Part shown: piece after piece, positions 14,444 to 25,164 of the stretch
How the letters are laid out: each line of letters begins with the position of its first letter
How positions within the stretch are numbered: the stretch's first letter is position 1
Origin: Acidimicrobiia bacterium
Lineage (GTDB): Bacteria; Actinomycetota; Acidimicrobiia; Spongiisociales; UBA5794
Direction of reading: 5' to 3'
Length of the DNA stretch: 27,125 bases
Assembly (NCBI GenBank): GCA_046496605.1
Contig: JAWOGV010000209.1
Coordinates: forward strand, 1-27,125
Made by a program: the position numbers and the translations under genes
Notes under the pieces: model-generated
What the model was told of the DNA's origin: nothing
The model's database searches: none
Seen by the model: only the letters and a program-made list of their open reading frames with translations

Positions 14444-15379
14444 ATGAAGCGGGTCTTCGTCACCGGTGCCGCGAGTTGGACGGGTGGCCAGCTGGTCAGG
14501 GCGCTTGCCGCTCGACGGGATGTCGAGGTGTTCGCTGTCGACGACGAAGCGCCACGTGTGGCGTTCGACGCCGAGTTCAAGTTGCTGGACCTCGACCGGC
14601 TCGCACTCGCCCGGTACGTCCTCGAGATCGAACCCGACGTGGTCGTCCATCTGCAGTCGGTCCACCGCAGGGCCGAGGAGGGCCACACAACCGGAGCCGA
14701 GGATCGGATCATCGGTGCCTTGGCGTTGTTCGGGGCGATCGAACGGGTCCAGTCCGTCTCCTCCGTGATCGTCAAGTCTGATACGGCCATCTACGGATCG
14801 AATCCCAGGAACCCCTCCGTCGTCGATGAATCGACACGCCCAAGGGGCCGCTCGAGCCGATTCCAGAGGGACCTCGCCGAGATGGAGCGTTTCGTGGCAG
14901 GACTCTCCGACCGCCTCCCCGACGTCGTGTTCACGACGCTGCGCTTCGCACCGATCTTCGGTCCCCGAGTCGCGAACCCGATCAGTCGCTACCTCACCCT
15001 GCCGGTCGTGCCCACGCTCCTGGGCTTCGATCCCCGCCTCCAGTTCACGGATGAACGAGACGCCGTCGCCGCCATCGAGTATTCGCTCGACCATCCGGTG
15101 TCGGGCACGTTCAACGTCGCGGGTGACGGTCAGATGTATCTCTCGCGCGTACTCCGCCTCGGAAGGCGAGCTCCCCAGCCGCTGCCGGGCCGCGTGTTCG
15201 ATACCGCGCTGCGGACCCTCCGCAGAACCGGGCTGGTCATCCCTGACCACCTCTCGGGCCTCCTGAAGCACGGCCGCGTCGCAGACACGACCCTGATGCG
15301 TACCGAGCTCGGCTTCGCTCCCCGCTACACATGTCGCATGACGGTGATGAACACCTATCACCCGGAGATCTCACCATGA
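14444..15379 (+). CDS. NAD-dependent epimerase/dehydratase-fold (atypical SDR), Rv0501/GalE2-like
   Basis: VFVTGAASWTG, AIYGSNPRNPSVVDE, TLRFAPIFGP, LGFDPRLQF, GTFNVAGDG. Leaderless start with TACCCT (14431-14436) 7 nt before ATG. Confidence 0.88.
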   Translation: MKRVFVTGAASWTGGQLVRALAARRDVEVFAVDDEAPRVAFDAEFKLLDLDRLALARYVLEIEPDVVVHLQSVHRRAEEGHTTGAEDRIIGALALFGAIERVQSVSSVIVKSDTAIYGSNPRNPSVVDESTRPRGRSSRFQRDLAEMERFVAGLSDRLPDVVFTTLRFAPIFGPRVANPISRYLTLPVVPTLLGFDPRLQFTDERDAVAAIEYSLDHPVSGTFNVAGDGQMYLSRVLRLGRRAPQPLPGRVFDTALRTLRRTGLVIPDHLSGLLKHGRVADTTLMRTELGFAPRYTCRMTVMNTYHPEISP

Positions 15380-16593
15380 CCGGGGACTTCCGATCGATGA
15401 CGAAGGCAGAGCTCCTCCAACACGCCCGAGCGATCGATCTGAGGGGGAGGTCCTCGATGACGAAGGCCGAGCTCCTCGCCGCCCTGGAGGAGACAGCGAC
15501 AGCCGGGAAGGCGGCTGACCGGGCCGGACACAAGGCGATCGAGATCCCTGAGGGACTCGGATCCCTTTCGCTACCGGGTATCTCAGCAGAGGACCGGGCC
15601 GAGGCCCGCCAGCGCCGATCGGCGCTGAACGACCGGCTCCGCGCCTTCGTGGACCCTGCGACGCACTGCCCGTGGCGGAGCATCGAGGGACACCCCTGCG
15701 GGCTGCCCGTGTCAGTCGGTGCATCCCGGTGCGGTCTCCACGGTGATGGCTCCATTGCCGATCGGGCCTTTCCCCTGACCGGCATCCTCGGGTTCAGCGC
15801 ATGGCCCGCTCTCTGGCGCCACCTCATGCTCGCAACGTACGACGTCGACGCCTTCGGTCTCGATCCCGTCGTGGCCGAGATGGTGTGGCATGTGCTCAAT
15901 GGCCTCTACTACGACTACTTCCGCGTGGAGGTCGACGGGATCGAGAACATCCCGCTGGATGGACCCGCAGTGCTCGTCGCGAACCACGGCGGCGCGGCGC
16001 TCCCCTACGACGCTGCGATGCTGTCGCTCGCCGTCATGAACGAGGCCGAGGTCCCGCGACGCGTGCGCGTCATCGGGACGGAGATCTTCAACATGCTGCC
16101 CTTCGTCTCGCACCTGTACCGGAAGGTCGGTGCAGCCCACGCAACCCGCGAGGATGCTGCCGAGATCCTCAGGCGCGGGCACCTCCTCGGTGTCTTCCCC
16201 GAAGGAGAGCGCGGGTTCATGAAGCCGGTGTGGGAGGCCTATCGCGTCGGGCGCCTCGGACGTGGTGGGTTCGTCGAGATCGCCCAGGACGCCGGCGCGG
16301 TGATCGTCCCCGTAGCGATCATCGGCTCCGAGGAGGTGCATCCAGCCGTGATGACCTCGAAGCTCCTCGCCCGCCTCGTGAGGGTCGTCTTCCCGGAGCA
16401 GCGGGTCGAGGAGATCGCCATCGCACTCAATCCGATCCCCCTCCCGATCCGGTGGAGGATCCGGTTCCTGGAACCCGTACCCGCGGATCGGCCACTCGAT
16501 GCGCTCGACCTCCTCCAACGATCCGAGGACATCCGTCGCTCCATCCAGGAAGCCCTCGACGACATGCTCGCCTCACGTCGCACATCGTTCTGA
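15376..16593 (+). CDS. Lysophospholipid acyltransferase family protein (Rv0502-like) with N-terminal Rho_N-like module and CCCH zinc finger
   Basis: DVDAFGLDP, YFRVEVDGIENIP.DGPAVLVANHGG, LGVFPEGERG, LGRGGFV, IVPVAIIGSEE, PIPLPIRWRIRF. N-terminal MTKAELLQHARAIDLRGRSSMTKAELLAAL and C-x9-C-x10-C-x2-H. ATGA overlap with the SDR gene. Confidence 0.9.
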   Translation: MTGDFRSMTKAELLQHARAIDLRGRSSMTKAELLAALEETATAGKAADRAGHKAIEIPEGLGSLSLPGISAEDRAEARQRRSALNDRLRAFVDPATHCPWRSIEGHPCGLPVSVGASRCGLHGDGSIADRAFPLTGILGFSAWPALWRHLMLATYDVDAFGLDPVVAEMVWHVLNGLYYDYFRVEVDGIENIPLDGPAVLVANHGGAALPYDAAMLSLAVMNEAEVPRRVRVIGTEIFNMLPFVSHLYRKVGAAHATREDAAEILRRGHLLGVFPEGERGFMKPVWEAYRVGRLGRGGFVEIAQDAGAVIVPVAIIGSEEVHPAVMTSKLLARLVRVVFPEQRVEEIAIALNPIPLPIRWRIRFLEPVPADRPLDALDLLQRSEDIRRSIQEALDDMLASRRTSF

Positions 16594-16615: not shown

Positions 16616-16647
16616 TGCTTGCAATTGCAAGCAATATGCTGTATGAT
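16616..16647 (+). promoter_or_regulatory. Sigma70-type promoter TTGCAA-N17-TATGAT overlapped by an 18-bp perfect palindrome (putative operator)
   Basis: TGCTTGCAATTGCAAGCA at 16616-16633 is its own reverse complement. The -35 is at 16619-16624 and the -10 at 16642-16647, in an AT-rich patch. Confidence 0.75.
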
Positions 16648-16657
16648 GCAATCGACT

Positions 16658-17005
16658 ATGAAGACACCGCAGCTTGGGGACGTCGGTTCGTTCATCCGTG
16701 AACAGCGGGAACGCAGCGCACTGTCGATCCGCAAACTCGCTGATCTGACCGGGGTCTCGAACCCCTATCTGAGCCAGATCGAGCGTGGGGTCCGAACACC
16801 ATCGGCGGAGATCCTCAGATCCATCGGCGAGGCCCTGTCCATCCGGACGGAGACCCTCTACGAGCGGGCAGGACTCCTCGACAGGGACGAACCTCCGGGA
16901 GTGACCGAGGCAATCGAAGCAGACCCCGGGCTGACGGCGAACCAGAAGAGAGCCCTGATGGAGATCTATACGACCTTCATCGCACACGACAAGGAGGAGC
17001 AATGA
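16658..17005 (+). CDS. XRE-family HTH transcriptional regulator (Rv0474-like)
   Basis: GSFIREQRERSALSIRKLADLTGVSNPYLSQIERGVRTPSAEILRSI...LYERAGLL...AIEADPGLTANQKRALMEIY. ATG 16643 and 16646 are alternative starts but overlap the -10. Confidence 0.92.
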   Translation: MKTPQLGDVGSFIREQRERSALSIRKLADLTGVSNPYLSQIERGVRTPSAEILRSIGEALSIRTETLYERAGLLDRDEPPGVTEAIEADPGLTANQKRALMEIYTTFIAHDKEEQ

Positions 17006-17691
17006 ACCTCGAAACCTCGAAGGAAACGGCCACGAAGGCCGTGAAGACGGTCACAGGGACCGTCGCCGATACCACGACGACGGCAACGACCAAGGCGAAG
17101 GAATACACCGAGGTCGCAGCCGGTAAATTCTTCGACTACTCGACAGCGGCCACCGATTCGGTCAAGGAGGCAACCGACACCGCGACGTCTCGCGCCAGCG
17201 AGTACGGCACCGCTGCTGTCGCCACGATCGCCGATACCGCAACGGAGATCATCGACCAGGGAAGGGTCCTCGCACACAAGGGCTTCGTCCGCGTGAAGGA
17301 GTTCCAGGTCGGAGACAAGAAGGTCGGCGAACGCGCCCAGGCGACCGTCGACACCGTCACTGAGAAGATCGACGTTGACCAGATCCAGGATCAGGTCGCG
17401 AAGCTCCGTCACCAGATGGAGGGTGTCCTGAGCACATGGAAGGACACGTTCCGTCCCTCGACGGCGCCCGCAACGGCTCCCAAGCCCGCCGCAGTGAAGC
17501 CCGCTGCCAAGAAGCCGGCAGTCAAGAAGCCGGCAGCGAAGGCGACAACGGCCACCAAGCCTGCCGTCAAGAAGCCGGCCGCAAAGAAGGCGACACCCAA
17601 GGCGTCGACCACGGCACGGAAACCTGCCGCAAAGAAGGCGACACCAAAGGCGACGACCACAGAGGCGTCGACCACCAAGACGACCGCATAG
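17002..17691 (+). CDS. HbhA/phasin-like protein with 11-mer amphipathic repeats and a Lys-Ala-Pro-rich tail
   Basis: AAGGAGG SD and ATGA overlap with the XRE gene. Tandem 11-mers at aa 14-79, a coiled segment, and a tail with KKPAAK repeats. Same gene order as Rv0474-hbhA. Confidence 0.8.
   Translation: MNLETSKETATKAVKTVTGTVADTTTTATTKAKEYTEVAAGKFFDYSTAATDSVKEATDTATSRASEYGTAAVATIADTATEIIDQGRVLAHKGFVRVKEFQVGDKKVGERAQATVDTVTEKIDVDQIQDQVAKLRHQMEGVLSTWKDTFRPSTAPATAPKPAAVKPAAKKPAVKKPAAKATTATKPAVKKPAAKKATPKASTTARKPAAKKATPKATTTEASTTKTTA
17458..17688 (+). repeat. Coding low-complexity repeats (KPAAKK / KKPAVKK / KKATPKA)
   Basis: GTCAAGAAGCCGGC occurs twice. GCCGCAAAGAAGGCGACACC.AAGGCG.CGACCAC occurs twice, 48 nt apart. 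Confidence 0.85.
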
Positions 17692-17710: not shown

Positions 17711-17744
17711 GACGTGGGGCCCGCACCCGGTGCGGGCCTTCGTC
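17711..17744 (+). terminator. Intrinsic terminator-like hairpin after the HbhA-like gene (may also serve the convergent DUF4332 gene)
   Basis: GGCCCGCAC-ccg-GTGCGGGCC, extended by GACG/CGTC and followed by ATTT. Confidence 0.65.
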
Positions 17745-17756
17745 ATTTCGAAACGA

Positions 17757-18161
17757 TCAGGAGACCACCGTCGAGTCCAGGACGACGGCCGTGTCCACCC
17801 AGCCCTGCACCATCTCGATCGTGGGGAGGCGCTGCACGGTGCGCCGCTTCGTGTTCACCTGGGTCATCAGCGTCATGAGGTTCGCGGCGTTCCGACGTCG
17901 GAGCGCCTTGACGGTATCGACCCCGGCCGAACCCAGGAGGTCCGCGTACTCCGAACCGATCCCATTGATCCGCATGAGGTCGGCCTGATGCGCCCAGCGA
18001 AGCAGGTCAACGGTGGCGATGCCGGTTCTCTCCGAGAGGTCCGATCGCTGCGTGCGGGTGCCGGCCTGCTGGAGCAGCGCCTCCGTCGTTCGGACGCGAG
18101 CCTTGCGAAGCTTGGTTGCGTCCCGATGATCGATCGCACGAATGGCCGCAATCGACGCCAT
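17757..18161 (-). CDS. DUF4332 domain protein (helix-hairpin-helix)
   Basis: KLRKARVRTTEALL, LLRWAHQADLMRINGIGSEYADLLGSAGVDTVKALRRRNAANL, RLPTIEMVQGWV. 134 aa, with AAGGAG upstream. Confidence 0.9.
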   Translation of the reverse strand: MASIAAIRAIDHRDATKLRKARVRTTEALLQQAGTRTQRSDLSERTGIATVDLLRWAHQADLMRINGIGSEYADLLGSAGVDTVKALRRRNAANLMTLMTQVNTKRRTVQRLPTIEMVQGWVDTAVVLDSTVVS

Positions 18162-18235
18162 CGGCTCCACTCCTTCTGACCAGCGCTCAGTGAACGCCGA
18201 GACTACTCATGTGCATCGGACCGTTGCATATCGAG

Positions 18236-18835: not shown

Positions 18836-19297
18836 TCACCGCAGGTTGCGGATCGCCCTGACGAGCATGCCTTGCACGTGGGACAGCCACGCAACAGCTG
18901 CCAGGGCGGGGTCCGTCGCAATGCGGTCCTCCCAGGAGGCGCCTTCTTCGAACGCACCGGCGCGTGCAGCGAGGACGAGCCTCGCCTCGTTGAGGACGCG
19001 CACCAACGAGAGGGCCTCGTGGCGTGTCAACTCCGGGGCTCCGGCCGCGACCTCCACGAGGACACGACCATCGACACGGCGGGCGATCCCCCGTTCACCG
19101 GATACCAGTCGTTCGAATGCCTGGGATGCGTCAGCATCGTCGGTGTACGCATCGCGATGCAGGACGTCGAATGCCGGGTCGGATCCATCGTCCCCGACGG
19201 ATGCGAGGAGTTCGGGAATGCTGGCGAGCACGCCACGGTCCGTGACCGAGAGCTCCACGACGATACGGCCCGAGCGCACGGAGAACACGCCCCTCAC
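18836..19297 (-). CDS. DUF2017 family protein
   Basis: [25 protein letters not shown] and [15 protein letters not shown]. Lies directly after clpS, as is usual in Actinobacteria. GTGA overlap at 19294-19297; 19315 is an alternative start. Confidence 0.75.
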
Positions 19298-19578
19298 TGC
19301 TCCATCGTTGCCCACAGCCCGTAGGCATGGAGTCGCTGGACATTGAGCTCGGCTTCGTCCCTCGTCCCGTTGAACACAACGGCCCTGCCCTCGTTGTGGA
19401 CCTGGAGCATGAGACGTCTGGCCTTGCGCGCGGAGAAGCCGAACAGCTCCTGGAAGACGAAGACGACGTAATCCATGAGGTTCACGGGGTCATCCCAGAC
19501 GATCACGACCCACGGGGACGCGTGGTCGACGGTCGTGTCGGACTCCGGCAGGAGGACAGGAGCCTCGATGGTCGTCAA
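19294..19578 (-). CDS. clpS: ATP-dependent Clp protease adaptor ClpS
   Basis: [25 protein letters not shown]...[35 protein letters not shown] start overlapping the upstream TGA (TTGA). Confidence 0.96.
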
Positions 19579-19805
19579 TGGCGATCAGATGCGTCCTCGC
19601 GATCGATGCCGCGAGTCCTTCGTTGTTCGTTGATCCACACCTCGAAGTCATCCCTCGAGACTCGCCACTCCCTCCCGAACTTCACGGCGGGAAGCTCGCC
19701 GGAGCGGAGAACGGAGGTGACGACGAACGTCGAGACATCCATGTATTCGCAGATGTCCGCAACGCTCAGCCACGGCTTGTCGATGTCGACCCGTACGTCA
19801 TCCAT
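19575..19805 (-). CDS. Excisionase-type helix-turn-helix DNA-binding protein
   Basis: [14 protein letters not shown]...[22 protein letters not shown]. Leaderless start, with TACGCT (19813-19818) 7 nt before ATG. Confidence 0.88.
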
Positions 19806-19985
19806 GCCTTCCAGCGTAGGCTTCGGCCGCGGACGTTTCCACGGGTTCGCGAAACCCCTTGCGAACCGGACCTGCCGATCGTATCGTCAGTTGGCTGGGA
19901 CAACGACCTCGAGGTCGAACGCATCTGGGTCGTATGCTTGTGACGAAGGTGCCATGGCGGGCGGATGATCGGGAAGGTTGAAGAC

Positions 19986-21098
19986 ATGATCAGCGCATCA
20001 GCCGCCGACGCGCACCGATTCGGACGCGTCAAACGGAATGGTTACGACCCTGCCGAGGTCGATGCCGTGGTGTCGCGCCTCGTCGCGACGCTCCGGACAT
20101 ACGAGGACCGCACCGCCATGCTCGAGGAGCGTCTCGCCGAGGCCGACGCATCCGCCGATGCCATCAGGCGGACATTCATCGCAGCCGAGAAGACCCGGGA
20201 CGAGATCCTCGACGGTGCCCGCGAGCACGCATCATCGATCACGGACACCGCACGCCGCGAGGCCGAGGACGTGCTCAGCGTCGCACGGAGTGAGGCCGCC
20301 GAGATGACCGAACGTGCCCAGCAGGAGACCGCAGCCCTCGGTGAGCTCGCTGGTCGCCTCGACCTGGAGATCGCCGCGACCCGCACTCGCCTCCTCGAAT
20401 CGGCCGAGGCAACCGCAGACGGGATCATGTCAGACGCCGAGGCCGCTGCGGCCGAGCGCACCGCCACTTCCACGGCATTCGCACAAGCGGAGCTGGAAGC
20501 GGCCACGGCCGAAGGCACGGAGCTTCGCCGCCGCTCCGAGCTCGCAGCCCGAGTGGCGGCGACGGCGGCAGCATGGACGCTTCGCGAGGCGCTGCTCGAG
20601 AGCGCCCAACTCCTGGCTCGCGCCGAGGAACGGGCCATCCTGGTGGTCGCCGACTCCGAACGGGAGAGTGCCGCCCTCATCGACCGAGCCGAGCGGCTCC
20701 GATCCGCGATCGCGACACTCGAGGCGTCGGCTGCGAGCCTCGCTGCCATGACGGCAACGAACGCGTCGGTCATCGACCTCAGCGAGATCGAGGCACTCGA
20801 GACCGCAGACCTCGACATGGCGGCCTTCGACGCTCCGCCTGTGAACGCGGTCCCCTTCGACTCGAAGAGACATGACCGCGAGGCAGAGGGGGAGGAGGAC
20901 GATCCCGTCGCGGGGGTGTTCGGCGAGGGCCCACGTCTCCTCACCGTTGCCGAGGCGACCGCCGAGCTCGACCTCACGCAGGACGATCATGCGACCGAGC
21001 CCCCTGGCGACGAGCGACCGGCTCAGGCGACGTACTACCAACGAACAACAGGTGTCCCGCTGTCCGAGCGAGTGAAGCTCGCGAGGAAGTCCAGCTGA
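19986..21098 (+). CDS. DivIVA-domain coiled-coil protein
   Basis: HRFGRVKRNGYDPAEVDAVV (DivIVA N-terminal motif), long Ala/Glu/Arg coiled-coil and acidic C-terminal linker. ATG 19965 is an alternative start. Confidence 0.82.
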   Translation: MISASAADAHRFGRVKRNGYDPAEVDAVVSRLVATLRTYEDRTAMLEERLAEADASADAIRRTFIAAEKTRDEILDGAREHASSITDTARREAEDVLSVARSEAAEMTERAQQETAALGELAGRLDLEIAATRTRLLESAEATADGIMSDAEAAAAERTATSTAFAQAELEAATAEGTELRRRSELAARVAATAAAWTLREALLESAQLLARAEERAILVVADSERESAALIDRAERLRSAIATLEASAASLAAMTATNASVIDLSEIEALETADLDMAAFDAPPVNAVPFDSKRHDREAEGEEDDPVAGVFGEGPRLLTVAEATAELDLTQDDHATEPPGDERPAQATYYQRTTGVPLSERVKLARKSS

Positions 21099-21120
21099 CG
21101 CGACTGCGAAGCGGGCGGAG

Positions 21121-21158
21121 ATGACGCACCGGTGGGGTGACCCACCGGTGTTCGTCAT
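21121..21158 (+). terminator. Intrinsic terminator-like hairpin after the DivIVA-domain gene
   Basis: CACCGGTGGG-GTGA-CCCACCGGTG, extended by ATGACG/CGTCAT. Confidence 0.7.
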
Positions 21159-21260
21159 TGTGTGCCCACCACCGACCCGCCGTCCTCGCCGGTGTTCGGG
21201 GCCATCTCGGGCCTCATCGGTGATGTCACGACCGCCCCAGCGCTCCGTGACAAACCGGGA

Positions 21261-21288
21261 ATTGATACGACCCGACTCAAGTTATACT
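21261..21288 (+). promoter_or_regulatory. HAIR (HspR operator) overlapping the dnaK promoter (-10 TATACT)
   Basis: ATTGATA-N7-ACTCAAG at 21261-21281 against the consensus CTTGAGT-N7-ACTCAAG. TATACT at 21283-21288. hspR is in the same operon. Confidence 0.8.
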
Positions 21289-21347
21289 GCTGAATCTGAC
21301 TAATACCGCCTGCGCTCACTGCAGGGGTGGCAACAAGGAGTATGACC

Positions 21348-23186
21348 ATGGCTCGAGCGGTCGGCATCGACCTCGGAACGACGAATTCGGTGATTTCAGT
21401 CCTCGAGGGCGGGGAGCCGAAGGTGATCGCGAATGCGGAGGGGCATCGTACGACGCCGTCCGTGGTCGCATTTGCCAAGAACGGTGAGGTCCTCGTCGGT
21501 GATCAGGCGAAGCGGCAGGCCATCACGAACCCCGATCGGACGATCCGTTCGGTGAAGCGCCACATGGGCACCGACTGGACCACGGTCATCGACGGCAAGA
21601 CCTACACGGCCCAGGAGATCTCCGCCCGCATCCTGCAGAAGCTGAAGAAGGACGCAGAGGACTTCCTCGGTGAACCGATCACGAAGGCTGTCATCACGGT
21701 GCCGGCGTACTTCGGCGATGCCCAACGGCAGGCGACCAAGGAGGCCGGGCAGATCGCAGGTCTCGAGGTCGAGCGGATCGTCAACGAGCCCACGGCCGCA
21801 TCACTCGCGTACGGGCTTGACAAGAACAACGACGAGTTGATCCTCGTCTACGACCTCGGTGGTGGCACGTTCGACGTGTCCGTGCTCGAGATCGGCGAGG
21901 GTGTGTTCGAGGTGAAGTCCACGTCCGGTGACACGAACCTCGGGGGCGATGACTGGGACCAGAAGGTGATCGACTGGCTTGTCAGCGAGTTCAAGGCCGA
22001 GAACGGCATCGACCTGGCGAAGGATGCGATGGCCCTCACACGCCTCAAGGAGGCTGCCGAGAAGGCAAAGATCGAGCTGTCCTCCGTTCAATCGACCGAG
22101 ATCAACCTCCCGTTCATCACGGCAAACGCCGACGGTCCCATCCATCTGCTCAAGACGCTCTCACGTGCGGAATTCGAGCGCATGACGGTCGACCTCGTCG
22201 AACGTACACGCGCACCGTTCGAGCGTGCGATCAAGGACGCAGGCGTGGCCGTCTCGGCGATCGACCACGTGATCCTCGTCGGAGGATCCACCAGGATCCC
22301 GTCCGTGCAGCGCCTCGTCGAGGAGCTCGCGGGCAAGGAGCCGAACCGAACCGTCAATCCGGACGAGGTCGTCGCCCTCGGTGCCGCCATCCAGGCGGGT
22401 GTACTCACCGGGGATGTCTCGGGCATCCTCCTCCTCGACGTCACCCCGCTGACGCTCGGTGTCGAGACCGAGGGTGGTGTGTTCACGAAGATGATCGAAC
22501 GCAACACGACGATCCCGACCCGCCGATCCGAGATCTTCACGACAGCTGCCGACAACCAGCCCGAGGTCGAGGTCCACGTGATGCAGGGTGAACGCGCGAT
22601 GGCGGCGGACAACATGAGCCTCGGACGCTTCAAGCTCCAGGGCCTTCCACCGGCGCGTCGGGGCGTTCCCCAGATCGAGGTGACGTTCGACATCGATGCG
22701 AACGGCATCGTGTCGGTCTCGGCCAAGGACCTCGGCACGGGCAAATCACAGCAGGTCACCATCACCGGCGGTACCGCACTCGACTCGAGCCAGATCGACC
22801 AGATGATCAAGGATGCCGAGGCCCACGCCGCCCAGGATGCAGAGCGAAAGGCGGCGGCCGAGGCCAGGAACGCCGCCGACCACGCGGTGCACACCGTCGG
22901 ATCCCAGCTCGCCGAGCACGGGGACAAGCTCGAGGAGAGCGAGAAGGAACCGATCCAGTCGAAGCTCGACGAACTCAAGGCCCTTCTCGAGGACATGAGC
23001 ACGTCGACCGAGTCGCTCACGGCTGCCACCACAGCGCTGCTCCAGAGCTCCCAGGTGATCGGACAGAAGATGTATGAAGCCGCACAGGCCGAGGCCGCCG
23101 CAGCCGAGGGTGGAGACGGAGGTGAGGCGTCGTCCGGCGACGACGTCGTCGAGGCCGAGGTCGTCGACGAGGACGACGCGTCCTGA
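21348..23186 (+). CDS. dnaK: Chaperone DnaK (Hsp70)
   Basis: [58 protein letters not shown], and C-terminal EAEVVDED. Start 7 nt after AAGGAG. Short monoderm-type ATPase domain. Confidence 0.99.
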
Positions 23187-23221
23187 GTCCGGTGACGGGC
23201 CACGATGGAGATCGAGCACGC

Positions 23222-23854
23222 ATGAAAAGCACACACGGCACCGGTTCTGGCTCCTCCCCCGTTGGGGGCGAGGAGGCGGCGACCGAGGAGCACGACATCG
23301 ACCCTTCGGGCACCGCGCTGTCCACCGACGAGATGCAACCGAGCGACCTTGCGGAGCACATGGGGCTGAGCCTTCCCGAGGATCCTCACGAGGCGAACGA
23401 CATCCTGCTCCTCGAGCTCGCCGAGGCGCGTCAGGAGGCAGGTGAACTCCTCGTCAACCTCCAACGTGTCGCCGCCGAGTTCGACAACTATCGGAAGCGA
23501 ACCGAGAGGGATCAGACCGAGAACGTCAAGCGGGCCAGCCAACGCGTCATCGAGTCGATGCTCCCGACCCTCGACAGCCTCGAAGCCGCACTGTCGATCG
23601 AAGCGACCACCGAGGCCGAAGCCAGGATGCTGGAAGGGATGCGGGGCACCGAGGCACTCCTGCTCGAGGCACTTCGGGCTGAGGGATGTGAGCGCATCGA
23701 AGCCCTGGGTGAGGCCTTCGATCCCGCGCTGCACGAAGCGGTGCAGGTGAGCGCGGGGGAAGGCGACCAGATCGTCGAGCGGGAACTCAGAAAGGGATAC
23801 GTGATGCGAGGCAGGGTCATCCGCCCGAGTCTCGTGATCGTTGGACATGCGTAA
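23222..23854 (+). CDS. grpE: Nucleotide exchange factor GrpE
   Basis: LQRVAAEFDNYRKR, MLPTLDSLEAA, GEAFDPALHEAV, KGYVMRGRVIRPSLVIV. The start is uncertain (23192 GTG or 23222 ATG). Confidence 0.96.
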   Translation: MKSTHGTGSGSSPVGGEEAATEEHDIDPSGTALSTDEMQPSDLAEHMGLSLPEDPHEANDILLLELAEARQEAGELLVNLQRVAAEFDNYRKRTERDQTENVKRASQRVIESMLPTLDSLEAALSIEATTEAEARMLEGMRGTEALLLEALRAEGCERIEALGEAFDPALHEAVQVSAGEGDQIVERELRKGYVMRGRVIRPSLVIVGHA

Positions 23855-24761
23855 GGAATGGCTCGAGAAGGACTACTACGCCGCACTCGGCGTGAAGAAG
23901 GACGCCTCCGCGACGGAGATCAAGAAGGCGTACCGCAAGCTCGCTCGCCAGTTCCACCCCGACAACAACCCTGGTGACGCGGCCGCCGAGACGAGGTTCA
24001 AGGAGATCAACGAGGCATACGACACCATCGGGAATGCCGAGACCAGGACCGAGTACGACCATGCGCGTGAGATGGGGTATTTCGTCGGTGGTCCCCAGGG
24101 TGGCCAGCAGTACGTTCGGGTCGAGGATCTCTTCGGAGGAGGCGTTCGAACCGGCCCGTCCGATGACGTCTTCAGCGGCTTCCAGGACCTCTTCGGTGGC
24201 GGCCGTCAGCGCGCACCTCGCCCGACCAAGGGACAGGACGTGGCAGGAAGCATCTCCCTGTCATTCCACGAGGCCCTCTCCGGCACGACGCGTGAGTTCC
24301 AGGTCGGCGGTACATCGGTGAAGGTCAAGATTCCCAAGGGTGTGGCAGACGGCACGAAGGTCCGCGTCGCGGGGAAGGGTGGTCCCGGCAGCGGCGGGGG
24401 CCCCGCCGGGGACCTGTACGTGACGGTCCATGTCGGGACCCATCCCCTGTTCGCCCGCCAGGGCAAGAAGGACCTCGGATTGACGGTTCCGATCACCTAC
24501 ACCGAGGCCGCACTCGGAGCGGTCGTGACCGTTCCGACGCTCGAGGGCTCGACGAAGATCCGGGTTCCCGCCGGTACACAGAGCGGGGCGAAGCTGAAGG
24601 TGAGCGGCAAGGGAGTCGAGACGCAGTCGGGCACGGGGGACCTTGTGGTAACGCTCCAGGTCGCCGTCCCAACCCGGACGTCGGACGACGAGCGGGCGGC
24701 ACTGGAGGCGCTCCGGGCAGCGGAGAAGGACTGGAATCCCCGATCGGTATTGGGAGTGTGA
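23847..24761 (+). CDS. dnaJ: DnaJ-family co-chaperone lacking the zinc-finger domain
   Basis: J domain with HPD (QFHPDNNPGD), G/F-rich region, and C-terminal domains (GDLYVTVHV, ITYTEAALGA.VTVPTLEG). There is no Cys anywhere in the protein. Confidence 0.95.
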   Translation: MRKEWLEKDYYAALGVKKDASATEIKKAYRKLARQFHPDNNPGDAAAETRFKEINEAYDTIGNAETRTEYDHAREMGYFVGGPQGGQQYVRVEDLFGGGVRTGPSDDVFSGFQDLFGGGRQRAPRPTKGQDVAGSISLSFHEALSGTTREFQVGGTSVKVKIPKGVADGTKVRVAGKGGPGSGGGPAGDLYVTVHVGTHPLFARQGKKDLGLTVPITYTEAALGAVVTVPTLEGSTKIRVPAGTQSGAKLKVSGKGVETQSGTGDLVVTLQVAVPTRTSDDERAALEALRAAEKDWNPRSVLGV

Positions 24762-24762
24762 C

Positions 24763-25164
24763 ATGAGCGAACAGAGAGACGCTGTGTACATCATCTCGGT
24801 GGCGGCCGAGATCGTCGGTATGCACCCACAGACCCTGCGCGTGTATGAGCGCAAGGGACTCGTCGAGCCCTATCGCACGCCCGGTGGAACCCGCCGCTAC
24901 AGCCAGGCCGATGTGGAGCGACTCCAGCTCATCCAGGAGCTGTCGAACGCAGGCGTCAACATCGAGGGCATCAGGCGGATCCTCCGCCTCCAGAAGGAGA
25001 ATGATCGCCTGCGCAGCCAGGTCGACCGGCTCCGCAGGCTCCTCGAGGATGCCGAAGCGCGTCGCGGTGAACGGACGCACACGATGCTGATCGAGATGGG
25101 ACGCACGACGAAGCGCCAACTCCCTGCGATCCGGAGGCCGGATCCCTTCACAGACGGCACCTGA
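24763..25164 (+). CDS. hspR: Heat-shock repressor HspR (MerR-like)
   Basis: AVYIISVAAEIVGMHPQTLRVYERKGLVEPYRTPGGTRRYSQADVERL...GVNIEGIRRIL. Last gene of the dnaK operon. Confidence 0.95.
   Translation: MSEQRDAVYIISVAAEIVGMHPQTLRVYERKGLVEPYRTPGGTRRYSQADVERLQLIQELSNAGVNIEGIRRILRLQKENDRLRSQVDRLRRLLEDAEARRGERTHTMLIEMGRTTKRQLPAIRRPDPFTDGT

What the first reader, a model, noticed from the sequence alone, without database searches (positions are those of the whole stretch)
17002..17691. Six in-register 11-mer repeats plus a histone-like tail in the HbhA-like protein
aa 14-79 parse as VKTVTGTVADT / TTTATTKAKEY / TEVAAGKFFDY / STAATDSVKEA / TDTATSRASEY / GTAAVATIADT. Position 10 is always D/E, position 4 is always A/V and position 8 is always hydrophobic. 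11-mer amphipathic helices are the lipid-surface motif of apolipoproteins, perilipins and group 3 LEA proteins (established). The last 77 aa hold 18 Lys and only one acidic residue. This lipid-binding head and polycation tail design is a natural lipid-to-DNA bridge (inference).
Basis: partly seen in the sequence, partly recalled or inferred. Interest (0 to 1): 0.7.

Follow-up and report, generated by a model that had tools for sequence, protein, structure and literature searches.

The report
MLDS/HbhA-type tether with 11-mer head

Summary
The 229-aa ORF (17002-17691) has six in-register 11-mers at aa 14-79. Periodicity and a hydrophobic moment peaking at 98 degrees (3-11 helix) exceed shuffles. 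The last 77 aa hold 18 Lys and 1 Glu.

The gene overlaps by 4 bp an upstream XRE regulator that is about 50% identical to R. jostii MLDSR. An 18-bp palindrome over the -35 matches the MLDSR-type box, which is also found upstream of this regulator in Rhodococcus and Mycobacterium loci. The locus is therefore the positional counterpart of MLDS/TadA/HbhA.

The 11-mer head has no detectable homology to those proteins. It occurs in 4 of 30 sampled genera of one family. Sister genera carry a 'LYAAVGAPVV' head that does resemble HbhA/MLDS. Both forms share a conserved heptad core and a basic tail. Repeat number changes in steps of 11 or 22 residues. In some relatives the tail is replaced by HhH or Rho_N domains.

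Best reading (0.55): a tether between a storage-lipid surface and the nucleoid. That concept was shown for MLDS in 2017. Lipid binding is untested here. This is a new variant of a known kind, of moderate interest.

The parts
16616..16633 (.). Perfect 18-bp palindrome TGCTTGCAATTGCAAGCA, the candidate operator of the XRE regulator (MLDSR-type box)
   Evidence: Read. The core 16-mer, or a close variant scoring 12-16 of 16, lies upstream of the homologous regulator gene in 32 of 60 loci across Actinomycetota. These include R. jostii (GCTTGCAATTGCTAGC) and named Mycobacterium loci. Same-size control regions score at most 11 of 16. It matches 10 of the 12 specified positions of the published MLDSR box.
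16619..16647 (+). Sigma-70-like promoter: TTGCAA, 17-nt spacer, TATGAT
   Evidence: 1 site found against 0.2 expected. The -35 lies inside the palindrome. RNA-library contigs from two studies begin at 16662 and 16668, which is only a weak hint of a leaderless start.
16658..17005 (+). XRE-family HTH regulator (115 aa), an MLDSR/Rv0474-type homologue
   Evidence: Pfam HTH_3 1.9e-12. 50.5% identity, E = 3e-31, to the R. jostii NBRC 16295 mldsr product, whose locus matches the published primers and antibody peptides. Homologues were found in 156 of 401 Actinomycetota genomes.
16991..16997 (+). Shine-Dalgarno AAGGAGG, 4 nt before the ATG of the tether gene, inside the regulator gene's 3' end
   Evidence: Read. 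The ATG (17002-17004) overlaps the regulator's TGA (17003-17005). The same 4-bp overlap occurs in relatives.
17002..17691 (+). 229-aa tether protein P0001 (whole ORF including the stop codon)
   Evidence: The N-terminus MNLETxKE is conserved in relatives. GC3 is 0.80.
17041..17238 (+). aa 14-79: six 11-residue (3-11) amphipathic repeats
17311..17457 (+). aa 104-152: conserved core GDKxVGERAQATVDTVxEKIDVDQIQDQVAKLRHQMExVLxTWKDxFRP, with a 3-4-3-4-3-4 heptad stripe from V125 to W146 (candidate zipper)
   Evidence: Invariant and near-invariant columns. Shared with the 'LYAAVGAPVV'-head proteins at hhalign 99.3%, E = 1.6e-20. The best AlphaFold confidence lies here, though only pLDDT 59-67.
17458..17688 (+). 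aa 153-229: Lys/Ala/Pro/Thr-rich histone-H1-like tail (18 K, 1 R, 1 E)
   Evidence: Weak Pfam HC2 hit, 5.9e-4, below the cut-off. Predicted disordered. Carries 15-nt repeats and 15-nt indels in environmental variants.
17711..17744 (.). GC-rich hairpin between the convergent tether and DUF4332 genes (likely two-way terminator)
   Evidence: centroid stem, -30 kcal/mol, z = -2.3. The X17 RNA-library contig ends at 17710.

Best explanation
P0001 is the Acidimicrobiia counterpart of the actinobacterial MLDS/TadA/HbhA proteins. It is a small, mostly disordered protein that tethers a surface to the nucleoid. It is made from a two-gene operon together with its own XRE regulator of the MLDSR type.

Proposed mechanism:

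1. The N-terminal 100 residues or so, built around six 11-residue repeats, fold on contact into one long 3-11 amphipathic helix. That helix lies flat on a neutral-lipid (TAG or wax-ester) droplet surface. This step is inferred.

2. The conserved heptad core (aa 123-150) zips molecules together and raises avidity. This step is inferred.

3. The Lys-rich tail binds DNA without sequence preference. This is inferred from MLDS, and from relatives that carry HhH or Rho_N domains in its place.

4. The regulator binds the 18-bp palindrome over the -35 and sets expression. This is inferred from MLDSR.

In this clade the ancestral 'LYAAVGAPVV' head was replaced by an expandable 11-mer array.
For: Operon and regulator. 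There is a 4-bp gene overlap and a Shine-Dalgarno site. The regulator is 50% identical to R. jostii MLDSR. In named Mycobacterium loci its homologue sits just upstream of HbhA-type genes.

Operator. The box is conserved across the phylum, scoring 12-16 of 16 against controls of 11 or less.

Known function of the Rhodococcus member. It has an N-terminal droplet-targeting part and a C-terminal Lys-rich DNA-binding part, and it recruits DNA to adiposomes (PMC5504291).

Link between families. The 11-mer-head (A) and canonical-head (B) proteins share the core (99.3%, E = 1.6e-20), the tail and the synteny HTH-X-DUF4332-NTP_transf_3-DUF2017-ClpS. B heads resemble HbhA/MLDS heads (93%, E = 3.4e-7).

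Shared physical property. A heads, B heads and R. jostii MLDS all have a straight amphipathic stripe over more than 50 residues at 98-100 degrees.

Tail. Relatives replace it with HhH_5 or Rho_N/SAP domains, which points to nucleic-acid binding.

Lipid storage. The genome has an intact WS/DGAT with the HHCMIDG motif. WS/DGAT was found in 54 of 61 genomes of the family, including all those with the 11-mer head. No PHA synthase was found (the genome is 86% complete).

Predicted structure. Helices span residues 3-150 and the tail is disordered, at low confidence as expected for a fold-on-binding protein.

Transcription. RNA-library contigs from two studies span both genes. This is only a weak hint.
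Against: Nothing here shows lipid binding, DNA binding or localisation.

The 11-mer head has no detectable homology to MLDS/HbhA heads (4.9%). The link is therefore transitive and positional.

The repeat segment is weakly hydrophobic, with an Ala/Thr/Tyr/Val face, and has a net charge of -3. For Plin4, 66 residues of a comparable helix did not reach droplets, and a net negative charge abolished targeting (PMC5889406).

Genera g262 (0 of 3 genomes with WS/DGAT) and g257 (0 of 3) still carry the canonical-head form (B) of the module. The module is therefore not strictly tied to WS/DGAT.

HbhA itself also works as a surface adhesin, so members of this module are not all droplet proteins.
Confidence: 0.55

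Rival explanations
1. A LEA-like or hydrophilin stress protectant. The Thr/Ala-rich 11-mers would act as a molecular shield or membrane stabiliser during drying, freezing or osmotic stress. The tail would coat nucleic acids, and there would be no specific droplet role.
For: 11-mer class A repeats are the hallmark of group 3 LEA proteins (established knowledge). The head is very hydrophilic, with mean Eisenberg H of 0.03. Weak profile matches of the head fall on YtxH-, HSP12- and apolipoprotein-like repeat proteins. The nearest DNA holders are soil and sediment metagenomes. MLDS itself improves survival under stress (PMC5504291).
Against: There is no Pfam LEA_4 match at E of 0.1 or below. The positional orthologues with a known role are droplet proteins. 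The heads of sister genera carry a hydrophobic LYAAVGAPVV segment, which is unlike LEA proteins.
Confidence: 0.15
2. A plain nucleoid-associated, histone-H1-like protein. The helical front half, with its hendecad and heptad repeats, would serve only for self-assembly into coiled coils and would have no lipid partner.
For: Hendecads can form right-handed coiled coils (established knowledge). The core has a clean heptad stripe. The tail resembles HC2/H1. The module persists in genera where no WS/DGAT was found.
Against: The hydrophobic face of the 11-mers is mostly Ala and Thr, which is poor for a stable coiled-coil core. The repeat number drifts freely, which suits a surface-coating helix better than a defined bundle. 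The Rhodococcus orthologous locus encodes a droplet protein.
Confidence: 0.15
3. A membrane-to-DNA or cell-envelope protein. The amphipathic head would bind the cytoplasmic membrane as alpha-synuclein does, or the protein would be exported and act as a polyanion-binding adhesin like HbhA.
For: HbhA is surface-displayed and binds heparan sulphate through its Lys-rich tail (PMC6176652). The head profile gives sub-threshold matches (E 0.5-1) to the 11-mer region of alpha-synuclein, which is a lead only.
Against: The sequence shows no signal peptide or transmembrane segment. The net negative head would be repelled by anionic bacterial membranes.
Confidence: 0.1
4. A PhaF-type phasin that ties polyhydroxyalkanoate granules to the nucleoid.
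For: It has the same three-part plan as PhaF: an amphipathic head, a zipper and an Ala/Lys/Pro tail (PMC7590123). One relative is annotated by JGI as 'PHA synthesis regulator phasin'. There is a weak NCBIfam phasin_2 hit at 0.018.
Against: Neither PhaC_N nor class III PhaC was found in the genome, which is 86% complete. No phasin model reaches its cut-off.
Confidence: 0.03

Closest known systems
MLDS (RHA1_ro02104) with its regulator MLDSR (ro02105) of Rhodococcus jostii, and TadA of R. opacus
   Same: A two-gene operon with overlapping genes. The XRE regulator is about 50% identical. A 16-bp palindromic operator of the same type is present. The protein has a long amphipathic helical front and a Lys/Ala/Pro-rich DNA-binding tail.
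   Different: The heads share no detectable sequence homology. MLDS begins with SLYAAVGAGD and has a 220-residue acidic helical region. P0001 has six 11-mers plus a conserved heptad core that MLDS lacks. The tail is PAAKK/PAVKK with Thr-rich spacers, not exact PAKKA.
HbhA (Rv0475) of Mycobacterium, with the upstream Rv0474-type regulator
   Same: The homologous regulator lies upstream, with the same operator type. The C-terminus is Lys/Ala/Pro-rich. The protein is intrinsically disordered and apolipoprotein-like, and has a role in lipid inclusions (PMC6176652).
   Different: HbhA has a short hydrophobic N-terminal segment and a coiled coil, not 11-mers. It is also a surface adhesin with methylated lysines. 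I recognised HbhA in the fetched loci from its architecture and from memory of its sequence, not from a reference record.
Acidimicrobiia 'LYAAVGAPVVAARK'-head proteins (for example P0054, P0059, and L009 in a sister genus)
   Same: The same chromosomal slot and regulator, the same core VDxxxxKxDLDQxQxQVxKLRDQLExxLxxWRxSFRP, and the same basic tail.
   Different: Their head keeps the hydrophobic YAAVGAPVV segment that resembles HbhA/MLDS (93%). P0001 keeps only the first residues (ETxKExxTKA) and then runs into the 11-mer array.
Perilipin 11-mer regions (especially Plin4), apolipoproteins, alpha-synuclein
   Same: 11-residue periodicity, 3-11 helix geometry and a weakly hydrophobic face rich in Thr, Ala and Val. 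Length varies by whole repeats.
   Different: This is analogy, not homology. The Pfam Apolipoprotein hit is 0.038 (14 bits against a cut-off of 90), and alpha-synuclein scores E of 0.5-1. There are only six repeats and the net charge is negative.
PhaF phasin of Pseudomonas putida
   Same: A three-part plan: an amphipathic granule-binding head, a leucine-zipper core and a histone-like Ala/Lys/Pro DNA-binding tail (PMC7590123).
   Different: A different inclusion (PHA) and a different phylum. No phasin domain match reaches its cut-off, and no PHA synthase was found here.

Membership tests
MLDS/TadA/HbhA module (actinobacterial lipid-inclusion and heparin-binding proteins) | Encoded directly downstream of, and often overlapping, an MLDSR/Rv0474-type XRE regulator gene | tested here: met
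   There is a 4-bp overlap. The regulator is 50.5% identical to R. jostii MLDSR, E = 3e-31. The same pairing is seen in Mycobacterium, Nocardia and Rhodococcus loci.
MLDS/TadA/HbhA module (actinobacterial lipid-inclusion and heparin-binding proteins) | 16-bp palindromic MLDSR box at the operon promoter | tested here: met
   GCTTGCAATTGCAAGC lies over the -35. R. jostii has GCTTGCAATTGCTAGC. The box is conserved upstream of the regulator in 32 of 60 loci, and controls score 11 of 16 or less. It matches 10 of 12 specified positions of the published box.
MLDS/TadA/HbhA module (actinobacterial lipid-inclusion and heparin-binding proteins) | N-terminal (L/F)(Y/L)A(A/T)VGA(G/A)D segment and a homologous helical head | tested here: not met
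   hhalign of the 11-mer-head family against HbhA/MLDS heads gives probability 4.9%. The motif is absent from P0001. Sister-genus proteins do have it.
MLDS/TadA/HbhA module (actinobacterial lipid-inclusion and heparin-binding proteins) | C-terminal Lys/Ala/Pro-rich (PAKKA-type) tail | tested here: met
   18 K in 77 aa, with PAAKK and PAVKK units. No exact PAKKA is present. The Pfam HC2 hit at 5.9e-4 is below the cut-off.
MLDS/TadA/HbhA module (actinobacterial lipid-inclusion and heparin-binding proteins) | Localises to lipid inclusions and binds DNA or heparin | not testable with these tools
   This needs fusions, adiposome flotation and EMSA.
11-mer (3-11) amphipathic lipid-surface helices (perilipin, apolipoprotein, alpha-synuclein type; a functional class) | 11-residue periodicity with a hydrophobic moment near 98 degrees over several repeats | tested here: met
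   Lag z = 2.75, 4.6 and 3.98. The moment peaks at 98 degrees, z = 4-4.65. This holds in 27 of 37 relatives.
11-mer (3-11) amphipathic lipid-surface helices (perilipin, apolipoprotein, alpha-synuclein type; a functional class) | Unfolded in solution and helical on lipid | not testable with these tools
   The AlphaFold model has low confidence (pLDDT 43) and is all-helical. That is compatible with this feature but is not a test.
11-mer (3-11) amphipathic lipid-surface helices (perilipin, apolipoprotein, alpha-synuclein type; a functional class) | Sequence membership in Pfam Apolipoprotein or Perilipin | tested here: not met
   Apolipoprotein scores E = 0.038, 14 bits against a cut-off of 90. 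There is no Perilipin hit.
Group 3 LEA (Pfam LEA_4) | Match to the LEA_4 11-mer model | tested here: not met
   No hit at E of 0.1 or below.
PhaF/PhaI phasins (Pfam PF05597) | A phasin domain, and a PHA synthase in the genome | tested here: not met
   No PF05597 hit. Neither PhaC_N nor class III PhaC was found in the 86%-complete genome.

The most novel reading that the evidence does not exclude
Inside one family of uncultured Acidimicrobiia, the droplet-anchoring head of the MLDS/HbhA tether was swapped for a perilipin- or synuclein-like array of 11-residue repeats. Its copy number is tuned in steps of 11 or 22 residues, even within a genus. The DNA-binding end was independently swapped among a Lys-rich tail, an HhH domain and a Rho_N/SAP domain. 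That would make the module a plug-and-play tether between a storage-body surface and the nucleoid. It would also be a bacterial case of convergence on the eukaryotic 11-mer lipid-droplet coat.
Probability: 0.4. Interest if true: 0.6.

Novelty: new variant of a known kind. Interest (0 to 1): 0.45.

Why it matters
Bacterial lipid droplets and their link to the nucleoid have been studied in only a few Mycobacteriales. This locus extends the MLDSR-MLDS/HbhA module, operator included, to a deep-branching class of uncultured Actinomycetota.

The head and the tail of the tether can each be exchanged while the slot, the regulator and the core stay fixed. That gives a natural experiment on what a droplet-binding helix needs: length, an 11-residue register and a weak hydrophobic face. 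It also provides a short, tunable 11-mer module that can be tested directly. The conserved operator box offers a way to define the regulon of Rv0474/MLDSR-type regulators across the phylum.

Tried and rejected
Family libraries. No Pfam or NCBIfam model reaches its cut-off for P0001.

Structure. The AlphaFold2 model built on 21 sequences has mean pLDDT 43, so I ran no fold search, because matches to such a model would be meaningless.

Complex prediction. Complex prediction on two copies of the core (aa 92-153) returned 'no answer', score 0.00. This counts neither for nor against oligomerisation.

ESM Atlas. All hits by features scored below 0.9 and are leads only.

PDB profile search. Only a designed helical bundle was significant. 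The alpha-synuclein rows at E of 0.5-1 are not significant.

Cluster names. The canonical-head relatives carry no informative names.

Paralogues. tblastn of the own genome found no second copy and no canonical-head paralogue (the genome is 86% complete).

Palindrome. The repeat finder with my settings missed the 18-bp palindrome because its arms abut. I read it from the sequence instead.

RNA cover. RNA-library contigs do not cover the flanking acyltransferase and DUF4332 genes.

Habitat. The labels of the run holders (soil, sediment, lake water) are noted but not relied on.

MLDS supplement. It holds no protein sequences as text. I therefore fetched the R. jostii locus with a degenerate pattern derived from a published primer.

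Considered and rejected. I rejected a prophage or mobile-element context, because the surroundings are housekeeping genes. I also rejected a mis-called ORF, because the N-terminus, the Shine-Dalgarno site and GC3 all fit.
Full report
THE SEQUENCE

The ORF at 17002-17691 (+) encodes 229 aa, stored as P0001. Asp or Glu occupies position 10 in all six. Ala or Val occupies position 4. Position 8 reads V/A/F/V/A/I. The last 77 residues hold 18 Lys, 1 Arg and 1 Glu.

The periodicity is not a chance parse. Self-similarity of aa 3-90 against 2000 shuffles stands out only at lags 11, 22 and 33 (z = 2.75, 4.60, 3.98). The hydrophobic moment summed over all 66 residues peaks at 98 degrees, which is the angle of a 3-11 helix (z = 4.0-4.65, p about 2e-4). 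It vanishes at the heptad angle. The non-polar stripe lies on positions 4, 8 and 11.

The repeat segment is weakly hydrophobic and has a net charge of -3, counted. There is no DNA-level repeat in the head. The tail carries three short arrays of 15-nt units.

AlphaFold2 gives helices over residues 3-150 and a disordered tail. Confidence is low (pLDDT 43), as expected for a protein that folds only on a partner.

RELATIVES

No Pfam or NCBIfam model reaches its cut-off. A word-indexed search found 66 relatives, mostly from Acidimicrobiia metagenome bins. An exhaustive profile search of 1.84 billion representatives found only 112 proteins at E of 1e-3 or below, and 16 at E of 1e-26 or below.

The most conserved part is not the repeats. 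It is a core at aa 104-152. This core has a 3-4-3-4-3-4 hydrophobic stripe from V125 to W146 and an invariant W..F(R)P end.

The distance from the N-terminus to the core falls into series 11 apart: 67/78/89/100/111, 68/90, 88/110 and 107/129. Within the window's own genus the core starts at residue 67, 79 or 104. The 11-mer, often as a 22-mer, is therefore the unit of change.

In 27 of 37 such heads the 98-degree moment exceeds shuffles by more than 2 SD.

The C-terminal tail is usually Lys/Ala/Pro/Thr-rich. In some relatives an HhH_5 domain replaces it (P0011, P0018, P0030). In others a Rho_N/SAP-like domain replaces or follows it (P0039-P0042, P0072, L181). This is independent evidence that the C-terminal end of the protein is for nucleic acid.

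A second group of 140-250-aa proteins shares only the core and tail with P0001 (57% identity over 37 aa; hhalign 99.3%, E = 1.6e-20). Their heads begin ...LYAAVGAPVVAARK.

THE LOCUS

The gene overlaps by 4 bp (ATGA) an upstream 115-aa XRE HTH gene and has an AAGGAGG site before its start. In front of the HTH gene lies a perfect 18-bp palindrome at 16616-16633. It covers the -35 of a TTGCAA-N17-TATGAT promoter. A GC-rich hairpin at 17711-17744 follows the gene.

The order acyltransferase, HTH, this gene, then DUF4332, NTP_transf_3, DUF2017 and ClpS on the other strand recurs in relatives with the 11-mer head. Apart from the acyltransferase, it also recurs in loci of the LYAAVGAPVV-head proteins. 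The two forms therefore occupy the same slot.

A sister genus of the same family has the canonical head, also with a 4-bp overlap (L009).

In 61 sampled genomes of the family, full-length matches to the 11-mer form occur in 4 of 30 genera. The rest match the core only, or the core plus part of the head. In 401 sampled Acidimicrobiia genomes the core-bearing module was found in 93, all of them in the window's order.

LINK TO KNOWN PROTEINS

The HTH protein has close homologues in 156 of 401 sampled Actinomycetota genomes. That count and the operator table include genome G001, which is unpublished, as are G048 and G088. No claim here rests on those three.

I fetched named loci with a degenerate pattern derived from a published mldsr primer. 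The locus of Rhodococcus jostii NBRC 16295 matches the published primers at 20-25 of 25 positions. It also encodes both peptides used to raise the MLDSR antibody. Its regulator is 50.5% identical to the window's (E = 3e-31). The overlapping downstream gene gives MLDS, which starts ...SLYAAVGAGDVVV and ends in PAKKA repeats.

In named Mycobacterium loci the regulator precedes HbhA-type proteins that end in KKVTQK. I recognised these as HbhA from their architecture (PMC6176652) and from memory of the sequence.

The palindrome GCTTGCAATTGCAAGC, or a close variant, lies upstream of the regulator in 32 of 60 loci at 12-16 of 16 matches. These include R. jostii (15 of 16) and Mycobacterium (12-14 of 16). 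Control regions never exceed 11 of 16. This is the type of box mapped experimentally for MLDSR.

Profile comparison links the canonical Acidimicrobiia heads to HbhA/MLDS heads (93%, E = 3.4e-7). It does not link the 11-mer heads to them (4.9%).

P0001 is therefore the positional and regulatory counterpart of MLDS/TadA/HbhA. Its head is not homologous to theirs.

All three kinds of head share one physical property: a straight amphipathic stripe over 50 residues or more at 98-100 degrees. R. jostii MLDS scores z = 3.8 on this measure.

WHAT IT MOST LIKELY DOES

MLDS binds lipid droplets through its N-terminal part and DNA through its Lys-rich C-terminus. It recruits DNA to artificial droplets and improves survival under stress. 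MLDSR controls the operon (PMC5504291). HbhA and TadA act on lipid inclusions too (PMC6176652). PhaF does the analogous job on PHA granules, with a head, a leucine zipper and a histone-like tail (PMC7590123).

The window's genome encodes an intact WS/DGAT with an HHCMIDG motif. So do 54 of 61 genomes of the family. No PHA synthase was found (the genome is 86% complete).

I therefore read P0001 as a tether between a neutral-lipid droplet and the nucleoid, with an 11-mer head analogous to perilipin repeats. In particular it resembles the Thr/Val/Gly-rich, weakly hydrophobic Plin4 helix (PMC5889406). My confidence is 0.55.

Four points count against this reading.

- There is no experiment on this protein.
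- The head is short and net negative. In Plin4 those properties abolished targeting.
- Two genera without a detectable WS/DGAT keep the canonical-head form (B) of the module.
- HbhA has a second life as an adhesin.

The rivals are a LEA-like protectant, a plain nucleoid protein whose helices only self-associate, a membrane or envelope protein, and a PHA phasin.

EXPRESSION

Contigs from RNA libraries of two studies (lake water and sediment) are about 97-98% identical to the window. They run from 16662 or 16668, just after the HTH start codon, across both genes to 17608 or 17710. A DNA contig continues on both sides. These variants also differ by 15-nt indels in the tail.

NOVELTY

The bridge concept and the operon are known from Rhodococcus. 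What appears new is the following.

- The 11-mer head, which has no family model and occurs in a narrow clade.
- The conserved heptad core shared with the canonical Acidimicrobiia form.
- The exchange of the tail for folded nucleic-acid-binding domains.
- The extension of the regulator-operator-tether module to Acidimicrobiia.

My verdict is a new variant of a known kind, with interest 0.45.

Noticed in passing
P0011, P0018, P0030 (HhH); P0039-P0042, P0072 and L181 (Rho_N/SAP): In relatives of P0001 a helix-hairpin-helix domain replaces the Lys-rich tail, or a Rho_N/SAP-like domain replaces or follows it. The DNA-binding end of the module is interchangeable.
   Followed up: partly
window 15331-16593 (+): The PlsC-type acyltransferase just upstream carries an N-terminal Rho_N/SAP-like duplication (MTKAELL... 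twice). It is syntenic in the three 11-mer-head loci examined, but not in the canonical-head loci examined.
   Followed up: partly
window 17757-18170 (-): A DUF4332 protein with an HhH motif lies convergent to the tether gene in every Acidimicrobiia locus examined, whichever head form is present. Its function is unknown, and a link to the tether is possible.
   Followed up: no
L038-L045, L053, L063, L117 and others (upstream of the HTH genes): The box GCTTGCA-N2-TGC(A/T)AGC is conserved upstream of Rv0474/MLDSR-type regulator genes across Actinomycetota, including the mycobacterial hbhA locus. It could be used to define the regulon.
   Followed up: partly
Genomes of genera g262 and g257 (family f1): These genera keep the canonical-head (B-type) form of the regulator-tether module, yet no WS/DGAT was found in any of their three sampled genomes each. 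Either another neutral-lipid route exists or the module has a role beyond droplets.
   Followed up: no
window 17496-17674: The tail is built of 15-nt (5-aa) units. Environmental variants differ by 15-nt indels at 17496 and 17563/17564.
   Followed up: partly
P0085, L009, P0096 compared with P0001: Canonical-head proteins and 11-mer-head proteins share the very first residues (M..ETQKExxTKA) before they diverge. This suggests the 11-mer array grew out of, or was inserted just after, the ancestral N-terminus.
   Followed up: no
P0074: A 269-aa predicted protein joins an alcohol-dehydrogenase-like N-terminal part to the pre-core and core of this family. It is probably an assembly or gene-calling chimera.
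   Followed up: no
window 19294-25164: The surrounding genes are ClpS, an HTH_17 gene, a DivIVA-like gene and the dnaK-grpE-dnaJ cluster. The same order recurs in relatives. This is an ordinary chromosomal context, not a mobile element.
   Followed up: yes
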